A stretch of DNA of 64,000 bases from a virus (IMGVR_UViG_3300042922_001018), one strand, 5' to 3'; positions 17,922 through 35,456 are shown, counted from the stretch's first letter. The notes: a model not told the origin generated them from the letters alone. Numbers and translations: made by a program.

Positions 17922-17966
17922 CGGTGCGCTCCTGTCTTGACGGCCGCGGATTTCACAACCGTGTTG

Positions 17967-18038
17967 TGGAGAGGGTGGGACTTGAACCCACATCCTTACG
18001 CTGAAGAACGCGTTGCTCTGAACCTGAGCTACCTCCCC
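17967..18038 (-). ncRNA. tRNA-like RNA with irregular anticodon arm
   Basis: Normal acceptor, D and T arms; ACGC/GCGT stem closing 8-nt GTTCTTCA. Confidence 0.7.
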
Positions 18039-18896: not shown

Positions 18897-18971
18897 GATT
18901 GCAAGAGGGGACTTGAACCCCTGGCCCATACGCCTTGTGGCGTCGCTCTTCCAACTGAGCTACAAGCAATC
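18897..18971 (-). ncRNA. tRNA-like RNA with 4-nt loop in place of anticodon loop
   Basis: Good D and T arms; ACGCC-ACAA-GGCGT. Confidence 0.72.
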
Positions 18972-19412: not shown

Positions 19413-19443
19413 AGGGCGAGTGTACCACGGTTCCGCCGAAAGC

Positions 19444-19759
19444 GAACACACCTGTAAGCCGGGTTCTGTCCAGGACGCGAGTCCCTGGGCTGCCATCTTT
19501 CTGAAGCGCAGAGCGCCCCGCGGCTTAGCCGCTGCCACTTACCCGTCCATCATCGAGGCACGACGCCCTAGGACTGTTTGTGTTGCACCGGTCCTCACCC
19601 TACTTCTTAGGCTGGGCTTAGTGGTATGAAGGTGTCAAGTTCGGCACGTTAGTCACCGAATCAGTAACCAACGTGCCGACTCTGACACTCCCACATGGAT
19701 GTCGTGTTGGTGCCCGGACTTTCCTCAACGCTTATGCGCTGCGACAGCCTGGTGTGTTC
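19444..19759 (-). ncRNA. rnpB: RNase P RNA with atypical specificity domain
   Basis: GAGGAAAGTCCGGGC and GACAGAACCCGGCTTA universal P4 motifs; P1 GAACACACC/GGTGTGTTC; P5 GCACC/GGTGC. Confidence 0.92.
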
Positions 19760-19837
19760 TGGAGGCGCTGACGGGATTTGAACCCGCGATTGTACGGTTT
19801 TGCAGACCGTTCCCTTTGGCCGCTCGGGCACAACGCC
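19760..19837 (-). tRNA. tRNA-Cys(GCA)
   Basis: Cloverleaf, U73, encoded CCA. Confidence 0.93.
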
Positions 19838-26172: not shown

Positions 26173-26325
26173 CGGACCAGTGTATCAAGCCTGTACAGGC
26201 GGGGACGGTACGACATTACGCATCTCCGGTTCGCGGGGCAACCCGCCTGTCAGTTCTATCCGCTTCGAGCGGTTTTCTCATGAGCCTGCGTTTACGCCTG
26301 AATCGTGAGAAAACTCGAAGCGTTG

Positions 26326-26411
26326 CGGAGGGCAAGGGATTTGAACCCTTGTGCGCTTGCACGCTCACCGTTTTCAAGACGGGCACCTTAGGCCAACTCA
26401 GTCAGCCCTCC
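26326..26411 (-). tRNA. tRNA-Ser(TGA)
   Basis: Long variable arm, G73. Confidence 0.92.
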
Positions 26412-26511
26412 ATGCTTGCGTCCGCGGACCCGCTCAACCCACGATGCTCTGCTGCGTTTCCGCCCTGAAGCTTGTCGTGAACGTCGCGCCCCGCGGACGC
26501 AAGTTGTGACA

Positions 26512-26776: not shown

Positions 26777-27199
26777 AGGCTCCGACCTCCCCGGCAGATT
26801 GAACCGCCAGTAACCCGTTGTCGGAATCACGGGGATTTTGGACCTGGCACCAGACCCAAGAAAATGAGGGGCACAAACCATGTGCCAACCCTTGTCTTTC
26901 CCATCGCTTTCTTCGCTACGCGTACGCTTCACGATGAGGGTGTCAAGACCGCCCCCGAATCGAACGGGGAACATCCTCCGTGAGTATGAAGCCTCTGACA
27001 GCGTCATACCCTCTACCCGGTAGTGGGTGCCGGACTCGAACCGAACTCCTAAGAGCGCGCATTGTTCCTAAAACCGGCCATGTCGTGAGGAACGCCTCCC
27101 CGCGACAGGACCAGCCCAATGGTGCCGGGCGCCTGCCTGTTCTACCCTCTACCGGCAGCCACCGCACGGAAGAGCGACCAACCTGCGTGATGACTGTCG

Positions 27200-27272
27200 T
27201 ACCCCGACTCGGATTCGAACCGAGAACCTCCGGTGTTTGAAGCCGTCGCCTCTGCCATTGGGCTACCAGGGT
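27200..27272 (-). tRNA. tRNA-Leu(CAA), short variable loop
   Basis: Leu-type D loop; loop TTCAAAC; weak anticodon stem. Confidence 0.78.
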
Positions 27273-27829: not shown

Positions 27830-27883
27830 ATTCGGCTGGATTAAGCGCCAGCCCGCTGTGTGGATTCCAACAGCAGAATCTCG

Positions 27884-27956
27884 TACCCCGCCCCGGACTC
27901 GAACCGGGAACTCCCAGATTTTAAGTCCGTTGCCTCTGCCGTTGGGCTAGCGGGGC
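27884..27956 (-). tRNA. tRNA-Leu(TAA), short variable loop
   Basis: Loop CTTAAAA. Confidence 0.88.
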
Positions 27957-29314: not shown

Positions 29315-29317
29315 TCG

Positions 29318-29701
29318 TGGAGATGGGGGGAATCGAACCCCCGTCCATTGTCATCTTTCCAGGCCTTCTACGAGCGTATCCTCTTGTTCTTCCTGTCCGT
29401 CGCGGCGTTGGAGGCACCGGAGCGCGGGGACACCACACCCTCATACTCAGTACCGCCGAGTGTGAGACTCGGTACTGCGCCTGTGTCTTGGGTTTGATAC
29501 CGGGCCGTCCAGGTGTTCAGGCTACCTGATTGACGGTGCGGCAGACCTCATTGAGGCCGTCGCGGCTTACGCTGCGAGGGCGAGGTCGTTGCGAGTTGCG
29601 TTGGCATCTCTTGGTGGACTGGCATTGATGCGGGGTTACCAGACCAATCCCCGGCTCGCTTCTCCTCGAAGCAACTGACGATGTCGAAACCGGTCATCCC
29701 C
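29318..29701 (-). ncRNA. ssrA: tmRNA, tag ANATRNDLALAA
   Basis: 5' GGGGATGACCGGTTTCGAC; 3' GACGGGGGTTCGATTCCCCCCATCTCCA (G3:U); tag frame 29605-29567. Confidence 0.95.
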
Positions 29702-30488: not shown

Positions 30489-30571
30489 ATTCGAGTGTCC
30501 GATGCAAGCACCGTCAGACGCACTCGACGCCTGTGACCGCTTATTTCTAGGGTGCAGTTCACTATACCCCG

Positions 30572-30670
30572 TACCCTCTGCGGGACTCGAACCCGCACCT
30601 TGTATCCAGGCTTCGAAAACGCGCTTCCCTGCCGGGGGCTAAGGTTCCCCAACCTCGTACCTTCTGGGTA
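30572..30670 (-). ncRNA. derived tRNA-like RNA
   Basis: Perfect T arm GCGGGTTCGAGTCCCGC; TACCC/GGGTA ends; remainder non-canonical. Confidence 0.45.
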
Positions 30671-31105
30671 GCGAGGCCCGGTCCCGGTGCATCCGCAACG
30701 TTCCTGGAATGACACCCCACCGTTTTTGGGCCGCTCTTCCTTTTGAGCTAAGAAGGTATGCAAGTGGGACTCGCCCGGCTCAGGCTTCACCCACATCCGC
30801 CGTCCCGGACCCATTTCGCACCGAACAGTGGCGGGATTCCTTCGTTTGTCGAACACGCGAAGTGTTCAGTCGCCAGACGACTGGCTGCTCTACCCCGAGC
30901 CAGGGCCGTGGTTCTTGCGGTGCCACGGTACCGTCGGGGCGCCAACCCCTGCTCCTGGCGAATCAGGCATGATGTGAGCGTACAGCATTCATAGCGAGTA
31001 CGCAAGTGGCAAGGCCCGTTAGCCCTCGGGTAGCGAGACGCGTCCCGCCGACTTGCGGAAGCAACGCCGCGCATCTTTTGCTGAGTTGCCCCTCAGCGAG
31101 CCTTG

Positions 31106-31475: not shown

Positions 31476-31629
31476 GTATGGGCCGACCCGTTGACTGCCC
31501 TCCGGTTTACACACCGGTTCGTGTGGCTGCCCTCCCTCAGTCGCGCGTACGGGTCAAGCCGCGCGGGTGTTCTTTCCTACAGCCGAGGGGAGCGCGAGGC
31601 GCTCTTGCTTCCGCTCCGAGGAGCGGCAG

Positions 31630-31712
31630 TGCCGGACACGGGACTCGAACCCGCACGAGCTAATGCTCACTGCGACCTGAACGCAGCGCGTCTACCATTC
31701 CGCCAATCCGGC
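31630..31712 (-). tRNA. tRNA-Leu(CAG)
   Basis: Long variable arm. Confidence 0.93.
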
Positions 31713-31870
31713 ATAGCAGCGAGCGCCCGAAGACACCCACCGCCACGACGAGCCACCTGTTCTAGCCAGTCCTCTACTGACCCCGGAGTGGTAGCTCCGT
31801 AACCCGCTCGTCATCGGGGTCACAGCTCCTTTCTAGATGCCTCGGGCGAGACTATGCTGTGACTGCTCGG

Positions 31871-31943
31871 TACCCCGCATCGGACTTGAACCGATAACCT
31901 TCCGACCCTAAATCGGACGCCTCTTCCATTGGGCTAGCAGGGC
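31871..31943 (-). tRNA. tRNA-Leu(TAG), short variable loop
   Basis: Loop TTTAGGG. Confidence 0.88.
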
Positions 31944-32038
31944 GAATGGAGCCGCGAGCAAATACCACCGACTGCTCCTTCTCCTCTTCCAGCCCGGATT
32001 GTGGGATGCCGCTGGAAGCGGGCCTCCGAGGAGGCTTG

Positions 32039-32125
32039 TGCGCATGACTGGACTCGAACCAGCACGCCCGTTGTATAGGGCACGGCGACCTCAACGCCGC
32101 GTGTCTACCATTCCACCACATGCGC
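32039..32125 (-). tRNA. tRNA-Leu(GAG)
   Basis: Long variable arm. Confidence 0.93.
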
Positions 32126-32363
32126 ATACAAGGCCGACTCAGTTGTGAACGTGGTCCGCACCTTGCTTACCGTTCTCAGCCGGTGTGTCTGCCTGCCGTA
32201 ACGTGGCAGGGGCCAGAAGGTTCCGTTTCCAGCTCGACGCCTCATGTTGTCGCCAATGAGGAGCTATCCGTCTACGTGACGGCCCGCTCCGAGTACGACT
32301 CGGAGTTCATTGGTGTCGCTACTCGCCAGTAGCGCTCTTTCACGGTGTACGTCCCACCGGCCG

Positions 32364-32436
32364 TGCCCTCAGAGGGACTCGAACCCCCGACCCCCTCATC
32401 CGTAGTGAGGTGCTCTATCCACTGAGCTATGAAGGC
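32364..32436 (-). tRNA. tRNA-Arg(ACG)
   Basis: Cloverleaf; loop CTACGGA. Confidence 0.93.
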
Positions 32437-32634
32437 GTACGGACTCGACACAGCCGCTAAGCCACGCCTGTCCGCGACGGACACTACCCAGCCGCCCTGG
32501 GGCACTCCCTGTCGCCGTGCACGCGCCTGGATATCGAACCGATTTCTCACGGTCTTGTCCTCAACTCCAGGTCTAGGAACTCGCACCAGCCCCGGCGAGT
32601 TGGGGTTACGTCGGGCGGGAAACTCGACGCGTTG

Positions 32635-32707
32635 CTGGAATAGAAGGACTCGAACCTTCAACCTACCGGTTAACAGCCGGTCGCTCTGCCGATTGAGCTA
32701 TACTCCA
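32635..32707 (-). tRNA. tRNA-Asn(GTT)
   Basis: Cloverleaf; loop CTGTTAA. Confidence 0.92.
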
Positions 32708-32713
32708 ATACTG

Positions 32714-32979
32714 TGACCCACCCCACCGGGACTCGAACTCGACTCGCAAGTCACTAGGCTTACGAATCGCTCGGACGCTCGCGCAATCCGACCGGACGTG
32801 TCGTTCGCGACCACGACTGCACAGAGCAAGCCGCCGTCCACCTAAGTGGACCCGCCCCGTTTCCGAGGGCCGCTGAGACCAGATGGTTTCCCACCATGCC
32901 TCCCGAAGTAGCCTCTTGGCAGCCCTCGGGCGGTTTAGGTGTAGACCACCGCGTGTACCAATTCCGCCATAAAGCGGTC
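32714..32979 (-). ncRNA. tRNA-scaffolded RNA with ~190-nt multi-hairpin variable region
   Basis: Leu-type D arm at 5' end, 10-nt anticodon-position loop, T arm and paired acceptor at 3' end. Confidence 0.65.
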
Positions 32980-33005
32980 ACATTGAAACGTCTTGCGACG
33001 TTCCG

Positions 33006-33078
<73 letters not shown>

Positions 33079-33082
33079 ATAA

Positions 33083-33193
33083 CCTACCGTCTCGTTCATA
33101 GAGCCAGCCCGCTCTGCCGATTGAGCTACCGCCCCTTAGAGGAGCGAATGGGACTCGAACCCACAACCGGCCAGCCGTGCACGATACGGCAAG
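33083..33193 (-). ncRNA. YrlA-like Y RNA (circularly permuted tRNA mimic)
   Basis: Long terminal stem, then T arm, acceptor stem closed by CTA loop, then D arm. Confidence 0.85.
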
Positions 33194-33250
33194 TCCCTCC
33201 AACGCTCCGGAGCGCTGGGTTGAATCGAACGCTTGCAACCGTCCGACCAG

Positions 33251-33324
33251 TCGGGATAACAGGATTTGAACCTGCGACTTCTCGCTCCCAAAGCGAGCGC
33301 TCTACCAAGCTGAGCTACACCCCG
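33251..33324 (-). tRNA. tRNA-Pro(TGG)
   Basis: Cloverleaf; loop TTTGGGA. Confidence 0.93.
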
Positions 33325-33563
33325 ATGTGAGCTGTATCGGGCATCCCCGCCGGACTTCTCGCGTGTCGCAAGACACGCGATTCACCGGAGCGACTTCATC
33401 ACGGGGTTCGCGCCCTAAGGGTACGCGTTACCGCGACTGGTCACTGTTCATGAACACGTGGAGTCCAAACCTTTAGGCGCCCGTCGGCCCCTGTCAAGGT
33501 CTGTCGCTCCTCCGCCTTGGAGCACGCCCGTTACCGGGTCGAGGTGAGTGTTCATCACCACCG

Positions 33564-33636
33564 TGGAGCCTAGGAGATTCGAACTCCTGACATCCTGCTT
33601 GCAAAGCAGGCGCTCTACCAACTGAGCTAAGGCCCC
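33564..33636 (-). tRNA. tRNA-Ala(TGC)
   Basis: G3:U70; loop TTTGCAA. Confidence 0.93.
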
Positions 33637-33878
33637 ATTCGGTTCAGGAAGATGCGAGACTCGGCCTTGCTCACGGGTGCCCCCGCGAACTACCTCCACT
33701 CGACGCTGTGTTCTGTCTTCCATCGCCTAGAAGTTGTCGCACCGTTCCATCATCCCGGCAACCCCTTGCGGGACCAGTCGGAGAATCGAACTCCCCGGAA
33801 ACTTCAACTTCCTAAGCACGAGCGTACCATGCATCCACATCGTACGCAAGTCGAGAACTCGATGAGTCTCGAAGAATC

Positions 33879-33957
33879 AAGGGAGCGCGCTCTTATGCCG
33901 ATTGCACCACCCCGCCCGACCGGGCGGGGACGGGACTCGAACCCGTATCTCTCCCTT
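33879..33957 (-). ncRNA. compact circularly permuted tRNA mimic (YrlA-like)
   Basis: AAGGGAG/CTCCCTT ends; T arm; CCCCGCCCG/CGGGCGGGG closed acceptor; D-like segment last. Confidence 0.75.
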
Positions 33958-33959
33958 CG

Positions 33960-34033
33960 TCTGGGTAACAGGATTTGAACCTGCGACCTCCGCGTCCCGA
34001 ACGCGGCGCTCTACCAAGCTGAGCCATACCCAG
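33960..34033 (-). tRNA. tRNA-Pro(CGG)
   Basis: Cloverleaf; loop TTCGGGA. Confidence 0.92.
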
Positions 34034-34226
34034 TCATCGAATGGTCAGACGCCCTGTCGAACAGGTTCGGCCCTGGTCACTCCGGACTCGCAAGCTGTTT
34101 TCTGATTTCACTCGACTTTACAGTTCCACGCGGCGAACTCCCCATCCACGGCGCTCACCGTGACCGAGGAGTGGACCCCGGCGCCGTACACTAGCGCGGA
34201 GCTACTTGCGCTAGGTGTCGAACTTG

Positions 34227-34300
34227 CGACCCTGACGGGACTTGAACCCGCGACCTCCGCCGTGACAGGGCGGCACGCTAACCAACTGCGCTACAGGGCC
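34227..34300 (-). tRNA. tRNA-Asp(GTC)
   Basis: Cloverleaf, G73. Confidence 0.93.
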
Positions 34301-34377
34301 ATAGGCGGACCGAAGTGTCAACCCGCCATGGCAACACCCTAACGTGGGTGTCAGACGACAACCGAATGGTTGCACTG

Positions 34378-34451
34378 CGAGACCGACGGGACTTGAACCC
34401 GCGACTTCCACCGTGACAGGGTGGCACTCTAACCGACTGAGCTACGGCCCC
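34378..34451 (-). tRNA. tRNA-Asp(GTC)
   Basis: Cloverleaf, G73. Confidence 0.92.
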
Positions 34452-34572
34452 AGAGAACGACAAGTAGTGGTGCATCCCGCCTGCGCCCCATTCAGGCGCG
34501 CCGACCCATATAGGGCCGAAGGCACTTCTCGTCGCAGGAACAGTCCACGATGCACTCGCTCGCCGTTCTTTG

Positions 34573-34646
34573 TCGCCCACGCTGATTTCGAGTCAGCGAC
34601 CTCCGTCCCCCTATGGGACGGTGCTCTACCTCTGAGCTAGTGAGCG
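34573..34646 (-). ncRNA. tRNA-like RNA with 9-nt anticodon-position loop
   Basis: CCGTC-CCATAGGGG-GACGG; T loop CTCGAAA. Confidence 0.68.
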
Positions 34647-35052: not shown

Positions 35053-35383
35053 ACACAGACCGCCTACCAGTTGACCGCTGGTCGGCTTCCGGACGCTTCA
35101 GAGAAGGTCAACTGTCCTTCACGCCGGGTACCCTCGTCTGCAAGGGGTTGACTCAACAGGCGGACTCCCGAGTCGAAGGAGCGGGATGAACCGAAGCCAG
35201 GACACCATCCTGCTCACAATGAGTATGCTTCGGCATGACTGCCCTACGCCGTGCGTAGCACGGTCGCTGATGGAGTGGTCTCAGAAAGCTTAGGGCTGCT
35301 TCGCGCTCCGTATCGCTAGGCTGCCAGTATTACGGCGGACCGCATTGACCTTATCCTGAGAGAGCAAGACCTTGCTTGCTACG

Positions 35384-35456
35384 AGGGACGTGGGGGATTC
35401 GAACCCCCGTCATCACTTTGGAAGAGTGAGGTACTAGGCCTCTATACGAACATCCC
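35384..35456 (-). tRNA. tRNA-Gly(TCC)
   Basis: Loop CTTCCAA, U73; Glu-like D arm. Confidence 0.88.

What the first reader, a model, noticed from the sequence alone, without database searches (positions are those of the whole stretch)
32714..32979. Giant tRNA: Leu-type scaffold carrying a ~190-nt structured insert
Seen: 5' acceptor strand and Leu-type D arm (GGCGGAATTGGTACACGC), stem GTGGT/ACCGC with a 10-nt loop, then about 190 nt of consecutive hairpins (e.g. ATGGT-GGGAA-ACCAT, GCCCTCG-GAAA-CGGGGC, GTCCAC-TTAG-GTGGAC), then T arm and matching acceptor strand. I see no group I intron core. Inference: a natural tRNA-scaffolded RNA that displays a functional domain at the variable arm.
Basis: partly seen in the sequence, partly recalled or inferred. 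Interest (0 to 1): 0.72.

Follow-up and report, generated by a model that had tools for sequence, protein, structure and literature searches.

The report
tRNA-shaped RNA with large insert
Between two ordinary tRNA genes of a giant soil plasmid-like element lies a roughly 270-base RNA gene that keeps the frame of a leucine tRNA but has about 190 bases of tightly folded RNA where the anticodon arm should be, so it probably cannot decode; I found no relatives, so its function is open.

Summary
On the minus strand at 32713-32981 there is a tRNA-like frame around about 190 nt of hairpins. The frame has a 7-bp terminal stem, a leucine-type D arm, a 6-bp extra arm and a T arm.

- **Frame is not chance.** ARAGORN calls it only when introns are allowed. 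It makes no such call in 2000 shuffles or in 43.7 kb of flanking coding DNA.
- **Origin.** The frame is closest to the array's own tRNA-Leu(CAG).
- **Not a decoding tRNA.** There is no usable anticodon arm. The only "spliced" solution has a poor stem, and its "anticodon" lies inside a hairpin.
- **Not a known intron.** Rfam gives no group I or group II intron hit.
- **The insert is strongly structured.** Fold z is -4.2 to -4.3, against a mean of +0.2 for coding controls. It carries a GAAA-tetraloop-receptor hairpin plus a GAAA hairpin.
- **LOOT resemblance only.** This gives a sub-threshold match to LOOT RNA (33.6 bits against a cut-off of 46.4), but LOOT's long central hairpin is missing.
- **Position of the insert.** It replaces the anticodon arm and swells the variable region, rather than sitting only "at the variable arm".
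- **No homologue anywhere I could search**, so conservation and function are untested.

The scan noted this same stretch once more in an overlapping window, and not on other DNA.

The parts
32985..33004 (-). 8-bp hairpin capped by a GCAA tetraloop (GGAACGUC-GCAA-GACGUUUC). It starts directly after the 3' end of tRNA-Ala(GGC). It may be a 5' extension of the element.
   Evidence: Found by the hairpin scan; sequence. Whether it belongs to the element is inference.
32977..32981 (-). Leader GUGAC. It pairs with the trailer GUCAC (32713-32717) and extends the terminal stem beyond the tRNA-like acceptor.
   Evidence: Sequence. The pairing is present in the MFE and in all constrained folds.
32970..32976 (-). 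5' strand of the acceptor-like stem, CGCUUUA.
   Evidence: Pairs with UGGGGUG at 32719-32725 as 3 Watson-Crick and 4 G-U pairs. ARAGORN cloverleaf.
32951..32967 (-). Leucine-type D arm, GCG-GAAUUGGUACA-CGC, preceded by U8 and G9.
   Evidence: 18 of 19 positions match the array's tRNA-Leu(CAG). ARAGORN cloverleaf.
32882..32950 (-). Proposed rod standing in the anticodon-arm position. It comprises a 6-bp closing helix GGUGGU/ACCAUC, an internal loop, the receptor helix CACC-UAAA / CAU-GGUG, and a long hairpin.
   Evidence: Helices read from the sequence. The constrained fold is 5.4 kcal/mol above the best tRNA-framed fold. The receptor part is aligned to LOOT by Rfam. This fold competes with an 11-bp helix (i57-67/i112-122) in the MFE, and I could not resolve between them.
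32892..32941 (-). Receptor hairpin of the 11-nt GAAA-tetraloop-receptor type: CCUAAA on one strand and CAUGG on the other.
   Evidence: Aligned to the first hairpin of LOOT. The motif with flanking pairs is unique in 64 kb on both strands. In a further 218 kb of loci it occurs only in a genuine LOOT RNA.
32855..32868 (-). CCUCG-GAAA-CGGGG hairpin, the candidate partner of the receptor.
   Evidence: Docking itself is inference.
32836..32851 (-). GUCCAC-UUAG-GUGGAC hairpin.
   Evidence: Present in every fold. Aligned to the last hairpin of LOOT, whose loop there is of the GNRA type (G, any base, purine, A).
32765..32835 (-). 3' half of the insert. It holds further hairpins, including GUCG-CGAA-CGAC (32800-32811) and GGAUUGC-GCGA-GCGUCC (32773-32789).
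   Evidence: Folds. No Rfam match.
32745..32764 (-). Extra (variable) arm: CGUAAG, an 8-nt loop, then CUUGCG.
   Evidence: ARAGORN cloverleaf. Its 3' part aligns with the variable arm of tRNA-Leu(CAG).
32726..32742 (-). T arm UCGAG-UUCGAGU-CCCGG, with a canonical T loop and one A-C mismatch in the stem.
32713..32725 (-). 3' strand of the acceptor-like stem (UGGGGUG), then discriminator G (32718), then trailer GUCAC. No CCA is encoded. tRNA-Asn begins at 32707.

Best explanation
This is a non-decoding RNA gene built on a tRNA-Leu frame.

**What is kept.** The terminal (acceptor-like) stem, the D arm, the extra arm and the T arm are kept. Together these form the tRNA corner.

**What is replaced.** About 190 nt of hairpins stand in for the anticodon arm and swell the variable region.

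**Proposed fold (inference).** A 6-bp helix (GGUGGU/ACCAUC) takes the place of the anticodon stem. It continues into a rod that carries a GAAA-tetraloop receptor. A GAAA-capped hairpin from the expanded variable region folds back onto that receptor, which locks the domain into a compact shape.

**Proposed role (inference).** The RNA is made as part of the array transcript. Cleavage at the neighbouring tRNAs sets it free. The tRNA-like frame gives it stability and access to tRNA-handling proteins. The insert is the working part, most likely a binding surface for a protein or another RNA of the translation or tRNA-surveillance machinery.

**Shown:** the frame, the insert, its strong strand-specific structure, the receptor and GAAA motifs, and the absence of a usable anticodon arm.

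**Inferred:** docking, processing and binding function.
For: - **The frame is real.** ARAGORN gives a cloverleaf when an intron is allowed, with 0 calls in 2000 shuffles and 0 in 43.7 kb of coding DNA.
- **Origin.** The frame is closest to the array's tRNA-Leu(CAG) in both its 5' and 3' parts.
- **The corner is intact.** U8, A14, G18G19 and the T loop UUCGAGU with G53-C61 are all there.
- **Strong structure.** Fold z is -4.2 to -4.3, against a coding-control mean of +0.23 and minimum of -1.5.
- **Strand-specific.** The sense strand folds 33.6 kcal/mol better than the antisense strand. Many helices use G-U pairs, which exist only in the transcript of the array's own strand.
- **Motif richness.** Three GNRA-capped hairpins lie in the 298-nt spacer. 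That equals the highest count in any 298-nt stretch of the minus strand, where the mean is 0.32.
- **Rare receptor motif.** With its flanking helices it is unique in the window. In 218 kb of other loci it occurs only in a genuine LOOT RNA. Five chance matches to the bare sequence pattern lack the flanking helices.
- **LOOT match above background.** The score is 33.6 bits, E 1e-4 for the 500-nt search and 4e-3 for the 20-kb array. For comparison, the best hit in 827 kb of two related plasmids is 13.7 bits, and there is no hit at E<=0.01 in 151 actinobacterial genomes.
- **Co-transcription is plausible.** There is no promoter- or terminator-like site within 31500-34500, and the element fills the whole Ala-Asn spacer in the array's orientation.
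- **Context.** The same array holds tmRNA, SRP RNA, an RNase P-like RNA and YrlA-like RNAs.
Against: - **No homologue found**, so there is no covariation and no proof of selection.
- **The secondary structure of the insert is not settled.** The MFE prefers an 11-bp helix that excludes both the receptor hairpin and the GAAA hairpin.
- **The acceptor-like stem is weak** (4 G-U pairs). The T stem has a mismatch. The discriminator is G, whereas the array's Leu tRNAs have A. All three could be signs of decay.
- **Rfam's tRNA model does not call the element**, either whole or in halves. This test has low power: a genuine Leu 5' half scored only 16.6 bits.
- **Leader-trailer pairing is unlike ordinary tRNA precursors.**
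- **No expression data.**
Confidence: 0.45

Rival explanations
1. It is a decaying tRNA-Leu duplicate. A copy of a leucine tRNA gene took up a piece of unrelated GC-rich DNA in its anticodon arm and is now a pseudogene with no role of its own. The hairpins would be a by-product of composition and of the inserted fragment's earlier life.
For: - The element is an orphan in every search.
- The acceptor stem is weak, the T stem has an A-C mismatch and the discriminator is G rather than A.
- All five Leu anticodons are already covered elsewhere in the array.
- Related megaplasmid arrays lack anything similar.
Against: - A fold z of -4.3 is far outside the coding controls of the same composition.
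- The structure is strand-specific.
- The tRNA corner nucleotides are all intact.
- The terminal stem differs completely in sequence from tRNA-Leu(CAG), yet still pairs over 12 positions including leader and trailer.
- A receptor with its flanking helices plus a matching GAAA hairpin is not expected from junk.
Confidence: 0.25
2. It is an intron-bearing tRNA gene. The insert is removed, either by self-splicing or by a protein, and the joined exons give a working tRNA.
For: - ARAGORN proposes a 167-nt intron between i43 and i211. That would give a 94-nt class II tRNA with anticodon UCC.
- Bacterial tRNA genes are known to carry group I introns in the anticodon loop (my own knowledge).
- The P4/P5-like layout with a receptor recalls the P4-P6 domain of small group I introns (my own knowledge, a lead only).
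Against: - No group I or group II intron family appears at E<=10 in a sensitive Rfam search.
- I could place no P3/P7/P8 core by hand.
- The P4-like helix would use bases that the spliced tRNA needs as its anticodon stem.
- The spliced anticodon stem has only 2 Watson-Crick pairs, 2 G-U pairs and a G-G mismatch.
- The "anticodon" UCC lies inside the GCGA-capped hairpin.
- A Gly anticodon on a Leu-type class II body makes no sense for charging, and tRNA-Gly(UCC) already exists at 35383-35456.
Confidence: 0.07
3. The working unit is only the LOOT-like module. It would be a diverged member of the LOOT family brought in by a mobile element that integrates into tRNA genes. The tRNA halves around it would be the scar of the target gene, not a scaffold.
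For: - The sub-threshold LOOT hit spans the whole model.
- Earlier notes of this scan place LOOT in mobile islands that integrate into tRNA genes (I did not check this).
- A genuine LOOT in a viral contig has the same CCUAAAC/GCAUGG receptor variant.
Against: - The score of 33.6 bits is below the curated 46.4.
- LOOT's 43-nt central hairpin is absent, and its last GNRA loop is UUAG here.
- My model of this domain finds the genuine LOOT only at E 4.1, and only over the receptor hairpin. The likeness may therefore be limited to shared building blocks.
- No recombinase or cargo gene is adjacent, because the neighbours are tRNA genes.
- There is no duplicated tRNA segment of the kind integration leaves behind.
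Confidence: 0.13

Closest known systems
LOOT RNA (Rfam RF03000; Weinberg et al. 2017, PMC5737381)
   Same: - A hairpin with a CCUAAAC/GCAUGG tetraloop-receptor internal loop.
- An A-rich linker.
- A GAAA-capped hairpin followed closely by another hairpin.
- The Rfam alignment runs over model positions 1-121.
- Function is unknown in both.
   Different: - The score is 33.6 bits against a cut-off of 46.4.
- The 43-nt central hairpin is replaced by 14 unpaired bases.
- The last loop is UUAG, not GNRA.
- This element sits inside a tRNA frame in a tRNA array of an actinobacterial replicon. By earlier notes, LOOT is a free-standing leader in mobile islands, mostly of Patescibacteria (unchecked).
tmRNA (Rfam RF00023)
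   Same: The two RNA ends form a tRNA-like acceptor/T-arm module, and a large structured domain stands where the anticodon arm would be.
   Different: - There is no tag reading frame and no pseudoknot series.
- The D arm is fully formed here, whereas it is reduced in tmRNA.
- There is no Rfam hit for this element. The array has its own genuine tmRNA at 29315-29701.
Engineered tRNA scaffolds for RNA expression (Ponchon and Dardel 2007; my own knowledge, not read here)
   Same: An RNA of interest is placed in the anticodon-arm position of a tRNA, so that the tRNA body gives processing and stability.
   Different: Those scaffolds are man-made. Here the extra arm region is expanded too, the acceptor stem is weak, and it is extended by leader-trailer pairing.
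Group I introns in bacterial tRNA anticodon loops (tRNA-Leu(UAA) of cyanobacteria, tRNA-Ile of Azoarcus; Rfam RF00028; my own knowledge)
   Same: - An insert of about 170-250 nt in a tRNA gene.
- GAAA tetraloop-receptor contacts.
- A P4/P5-like helix-loop-helix.
   Different: - No Rfam hit at E<=10.
- No P3/P7/P8 core.
- The exons do not give a sound anticodon arm.
YrlA / bacterial Y RNA (Rfam RF02553) and the other tRNA-like RNAs of this array
   Same: These are non-decoding RNAs that keep the tRNA corner. A YrlA-like hit lies 100 nt upstream, at 33081-33192, with 37.5 bits against a cut-off of 69.
   Different: YrlA is circularly permuted, with the T arm before the D arm, whereas this element has the normal order. 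It shows no sequence likeness to the 186-nt tRNA-shaped RNA at 30571-30757 beyond the T arm.

Membership tests
tRNA (RF00005) | Acceptor stem of 7 pairs | tested here: met
   CGCUUUA/UGGGGUG pairs at all 7 positions, but 4 of them are G-U.
tRNA (RF00005) | D arm and T arm carrying the corner nucleotides (U8, A14, G18G19, T loop UUCRANY, G53-C61) | tested here: met
   All are present. The T stem has one A-C mismatch.
tRNA (RF00005) | Anticodon arm: 5-bp stem and 7-nt loop | tested here: not met
   The contiguous stem GUGGU/ACCGC has a 10-nt loop. The "spliced" stem GUGGU/GCGAU has 2 Watson-Crick pairs, 2 G-U pairs and 1 mismatch.
tRNA (RF00005) | Score at or above the curated cut-off, or a default tRNA-finder call | tested here: not met
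   No Rfam tRNA hit at E<=10, whole or in halves. The halves test has low power, since a genuine Leu half scored 16.6 bits. ARAGORN's default run makes no call; it calls the element only with introns allowed.
tRNA-Leu identity (bacterial LeuRS; my own knowledge of Asahara et al.) | Discriminator A73 | tested here: not met
   The base after the 3' strand is G (32718). The array's tRNA-Leu(CAG) and tRNA-Leu(GAG) have A.
Group I intron (RF00028) | Conserved core (P3-P8 pseudoknot, P7 guanosine site), detectable by the family model | tested here: not met
   No hit at E<=10 in a 501-nt search with lax filters. I could place no P3/P7 by hand.
Group I intron (RF00028) | The joined exons restore a functional gene | tested here: not met
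   The best splice found by ARAGORN gives a poor anticodon stem and a Gly anticodon on a Leu-type body.
LOOT RNA (RF03000) | Score at or above the gathering cut-off of 46.4 bits | tested here: not met
   33.6 bits. A genuine LOOT scored 90.9 bits.
LOOT RNA (RF03000) | First hairpin with the CCUAAaC/GCAUGG receptor loop | tested here: met
   CACC-UAAA-CC...GG-CAU-GGUG, aligned by Rfam. It is unique in the window.
LOOT RNA (RF03000) | Long central hairpin (model positions about 41-84) | tested here: not met
   Skipped in the alignment: 43 model positions correspond to 14 unpaired bases here.
LOOT RNA (RF03000) | Two adjoining 3' hairpins with GAAA and GNRA loops | tested here: inconclusive
   The GAAA hairpin is present. 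The second hairpin is present, but its loop is UUAG, and 3 nt separate the two.
tmRNA (RF00023) | Tag reading frame and pseudoknots between tRNA-like ends | tested here: not met
   No tmRNA hit here. The permuted-tmRNA model scores 11.6 bits, E 3.8. ARAGORN finds the array's tmRNA elsewhere.

The most novel reading that the evidence does not exclude
This is a natural counterpart of the laboratory "tRNA scaffold". A mobile element would have turned a leucine tRNA into a carrier that presents a self-locking tetraloop-receptor domain. It would do so in order to bind or distract a host factor that recognises tRNA shape, for example a tRNA-cutting defence enzyme, a synthetase or a tRNA-processing enzyme. 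The element would then be one member of a wider, undescribed set of non-decoding tRNA-shaped RNAs in the tRNA arrays of giant plasmids and phages.
Probability: 0.25. Interest if true: 0.8.

Novelty: new variant of a known kind. Interest (0 to 1): 0.5.

Why it matters
tRNA arrays on phages and large plasmids are usually read as spare decoding capacity, or as protection against host enzymes that cut tRNAs.

A gene that keeps the tRNA corner but swaps the decoding arm for a compact folded domain would change that reading. It would show that these arrays also breed new RNA machines from tRNA parts.

It would also be a natural example of the tRNA-scaffold principle used in RNA engineering. The element is small enough (about 270 nt) for direct structure determination and binding-partner pull-downs.

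At present this weight rests on a single sequence.

Tried and rejected
**Identities tested and rejected**
- Group I or II intron, self-cleaving ribozymes and riboswitches: no Rfam family at E<=10 apart from LOOT.
- Spliced tRNA: rejected on the poor anticodon stem.
- Copy of a piece of 23S rRNA: no similarity to the 23S of Arthrobacter terrae. 16S was not tested.
- Protein-coding: the overlapping ORFs (32760-33047 minus, 32896-33330 plus, 32698-32841 minus) run into tRNA genes and have no Pfam match at E<=1.
- Paralogue in the window: none, apart from T-loop words.

**Homologue searches, all negative**
- blastn against phages and plasmids found only the flanking tRNAs.
- An exact 19-mer and a D-arm-plus-receptor pattern found nothing in viral contigs.
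- The array's nuclease gene as an anchor found nothing in viral or genome contigs.
- A 21-nt tmRNA anchor shared with the Arthrobacter megaplasmids found only A. terrae, which lacks the element.
- 401 Micrococcaceae genomes by BLAST gave only short chance hits.
- My covariance model R1 found nothing in six related plasmids or in A. terrae.
- The LOOT model found nothing in two related plasmids or in 151 actinobacterial genomes.

The Logan and ENA contigs that hold relatives of the neighbouring protein could therefore not be fetched.

**Low-power test**
- The Rfam tRNA model on each half of the element separately gave no hit.

Full report
**Setting**

The window carries 53 tRNA genes and a tmRNA, all on the minus strand between 17.9 and 36.9 kb. 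Rfam adds three things in the same stretch:
- an SRP RNA at 26412-26503;
- an RNase P-like RNA at 19439-19760 (91.5 bits against a cut-off of 100);
- two YrlA-like sub-threshold hits.

No whole genome is held for the window. The protein next to the array occurs on a contig of 450,372 bases. Earlier notes of this scan describe a roughly 450-kb actinobacterial plasmid-like replicon.

Distant relatives are the 375-440-kb Arthrobacter, Pseudarthrobacter and Paenarthrobacter plasmids:
- a 1146-aa protein is 27-30% identical;
- they carry similar tRNA arrays;
- their tmRNAs have nearly the same tag, ANATR(N/S)D(L/Y)ALA(A/V), and share a 22-nt identical stretch with the window's tmRNA.

**The observation**

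I index the RNA as the reverse complement of 32708-32985, so base i lies at window coordinate 32986-i. Reading 5' to 3':

| Part | Sequence | RNA index |
|---|---|---|
| Leader | GUGAC | i5-9 |
| Terminal stem, 5' strand | CGCUUUA | i10-16 |
| Positions 8 and 9 | U, G | i17-18 |
| D arm | GCG-GAAUUGGUACA-CGC | i19-35 |
| Hairpin region | about 190 nt | i36-221 |
| Extra arm | CGUAAG / CUUGCG | i222-241 |
| T arm | UCGAG-UUCGAGU-CCCGG | i244-260 |
| Terminal stem, 3' strand | UGGGGUG | i261-267 |
| Discriminator | G | i268 |
| Trailer (pairs with the leader) | GUCAC | i269-273 |

ARAGORN's default run and the Rfam tRNA model do not call the element. ARAGORN with introns allowed draws a cloverleaf at 32717-32977 with a 167-nt "intron". 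That call is not chance: there were none in 2000 dinucleotide shuffles of the spacer and none in 43.7 kb of flanking coding DNA on both strands.

The only other intron-type calls in the window are the tmRNA and another tRNA-shaped RNA at 30571-30757.

**Origin of the frame**

Among the array's tRNAs, the two ends of the element align best with tRNA-Leu(CAG) at 31629-31712. The D arm matches at 18 of 19 positions. The 3' part matches from about position 42 through the T loop.

Likeness stops after position 26 and resumes near the end of the old anticodon stem. The anticodon arm is therefore what was replaced.

The terminal stem has an entirely different sequence from that of tRNA-Leu(CAG). It still pairs at all seven positions (3 Watson-Crick, 4 G-U) and is lengthened by five leader-trailer pairs. 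The discriminator is G, whereas the array's Leu tRNAs have A. By my own knowledge of LeuRS identity rules, that argues against leucylation.

**Not a decoding or spliced tRNA**

- The contiguous stem GUGGU/ACCGC closes a 10-nt loop.
- The ARAGORN splice gives a stem with 2 Watson-Crick pairs, 2 G-U pairs and a G-G mismatch.
- Its "anticodon" UCC lies inside the GCGA-capped hairpin i197-213.
- tRNA-Gly(UCC) and all five Leu anticodons are already present in the array.
- A sensitive Rfam search of 501 nt found no group I or II intron, ribozyme or riboswitch at E<=10.

**The insert is a structured RNA**

- The MFE of the 278-nt transcript is -131.9 kcal/mol, z -4.18. My own shuffles gave -4.28. 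Thirteen coding stretches of the same length and strand gave a mean z of +0.23 and a minimum of -1.5.
- The insert alone has z -3.24.
- The antisense transcript reaches only -98.3 kcal/mol, z -2.57. This fits the many G-U pairs in the helices.
- The 298-nt spacer holds three GNRA-capped hairpins of at least 4 bp. That is the highest count of any 298-nt stretch of the minus strand, where the mean is 0.32. One of them is an 8-bp GCAA hairpin directly after tRNA-Ala.
- No promoter- or terminator-like site lies within 31500-34500. The element fills the spacer between tRNA-Ala(GGC) and tRNA-Asn(GUU), so it is probably co-transcribed and freed when its neighbours are processed (inference).

**The LOOT-like module**

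Rfam's only non-tRNA hit is LOOT (RF03000) at 32836-32941. It scores 33.6 bits against a cut-off of 46.4. E is 1e-4 for the 500-nt search and 4e-3 for the 20-kb array.

A genuine LOOT fetched from a viral contig scores 90.9 bits and shows the full model:
- a hairpin whose internal loop is CCUAAaC/GCAUGG;
- an A-rich linker;
- a 43-nt hairpin;
- a GAAA hairpin;
- a GNRA hairpin.

By my own knowledge, that internal loop is the 11-nt GAAA-tetraloop receptor with an A-C in place of the usual G-U.

The element here has the receptor hairpin, the linker, the GAAA hairpin and a last hairpin. It lacks the 43-nt hairpin, and its last loop is UUAG.

Evidence that the match stands above background:
- The best LOOT hit in 827 kb of two related plasmids is 13.7 bits.
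- There is no hit at E<=0.01 in 151 actinobacterial genomes.
- The receptor with flanking pairs is unique in the window. In 218 kb of other loci it occurs only in the genuine LOOT. Five chance matches to the bare sequence pattern lack the flanking helices.

Evidence that limits the claim: my single-sequence model of the domain (R1) finds the genuine LOOT only at E 4.1, and only over the receptor hairpin.

I therefore call the module LOOT-like, not a LOOT member.

**Fold model and its limits**

One reading puts a 6-bp helix, GGUGGU(i36-41)/ACCAUC(i99-104), directly under the D arm where the anticodon stem would be. It continues through an internal loop into the receptor helix and a long hairpin. 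The GAAA hairpin (i118-131) then comes from the swollen variable region and can fold back onto the receptor.

| Fold | Energy (kcal/mol) |
|---|---|
| tRNA frame imposed, plus receptor model | -113.3 |
| tRNA frame imposed, best fold | -118.7 |
| No constraint (MFE) | -131.9 |

The lower-energy folds use an 11-bp helix (i57-67/i112-122) that excludes both the receptor hairpin and the GAAA hairpin. Tertiary docking is not part of these energies. Only covariation or probing can decide between the folds.

**Search for relatives**

All searches were negative:
- blastn in phages and plasmids;
- sequence patterns in viral and metagenome contigs.
- a protein anchor in viral and genome contigs;
- a tmRNA anchor, which found only Arthrobacter terrae, and that genome lacks the element;
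- 401 Micrococcaceae genomes;
- model R1 in six related plasmids and A. terrae;
- ARAGORN with introns allowed on related arrays.

The published surveys of tRNA arrays that I read mention a tmRNA and a roughly 430-nt structured RNA in mycobacterial arrays. They mention no intron-bearing or insert-bearing tRNAs (PMC5966550; PMC12803027).

**Verdict**

The reading "tRNA-scaffolded structured RNA" is the best available (0.45). It needs one correction: the insert stands in for the anticodon arm as well as swelling the variable region.

The rivals:
- a decaying tRNA-Leu copy (0.25);
- a LOOT-type module in a tRNA scar (0.13);
- a spliced tRNA (0.07).

Without relatives or expression data the function stays inferred. 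That keeps my interest score at 0.5.

Noticed in passing
window 27199-27272, 27883-27956, 31869-31943, 34572-34646 (minus strand): Four tRNAs with leucine anticodons (CAA, UAA, UAG, UAG) are only 74-75 nt long, so they lack the long extra arm that bacterial tRNA-Leu normally has. Only Leu(CAG) and Leu(GAG) are of the long type.
   Followed up: no
window 29315-29701; L002 24939-25326; L003 31202-31589; L009 476-861: The replicon's tmRNA tag (ANATRNDLALAA) is nearly the same as those of the Arthrobacter and Pseudarthrobacter megaplasmids and of A. terrae. The window, L002 and L003 share an identical 22-nt stretch around the resume codon, and a 21-nt part of it also matches L009. This makes a handy anchor for finding this plasmid family.
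   Followed up: partly
window 26412-26503 (minus strand): A small SRP RNA (40.4 bits, just at the cut-off of 40) starts at the base next to tRNA-Ser(UGA) at 26325-26411.
   Followed up: no
window 19439-19760 (minus strand): A bacterial type A RNase P RNA match of 91.5 bits, below the cut-off of 100, lies inside the tRNA array.
   Followed up: no
window 33081-33192 and 33861-33963 (minus strand): Sub-threshold YrlA (Y RNA-like) matches of 37.5 and 22.6 bits against a cut-off of 69. The first lies just upstream of the tRNA-Ala that precedes the element.
   Followed up: no
window 32985-33004 (minus strand): An 8-bp hairpin with a GCAA loop begins at the base after the discriminator of tRNA-Ala(GGC), where CCA would be added.
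   Followed up: partly
window 17966-18038 and 18897-18969 (minus strand): ARAGORN reports two tRNA-like genes with two-base "anticodons", meaning irregular anticodon loops.
   Followed up: no
RNA i141-144 (window 32842-32845) and i229-232 (window 32754-32757): The UUAG loop of one hairpin is complementary to CUAG in the loop of the extra arm (3 Watson-Crick pairs and 1 G-U). This could be a loop-loop contact or a coincidence.
   Followed up: no
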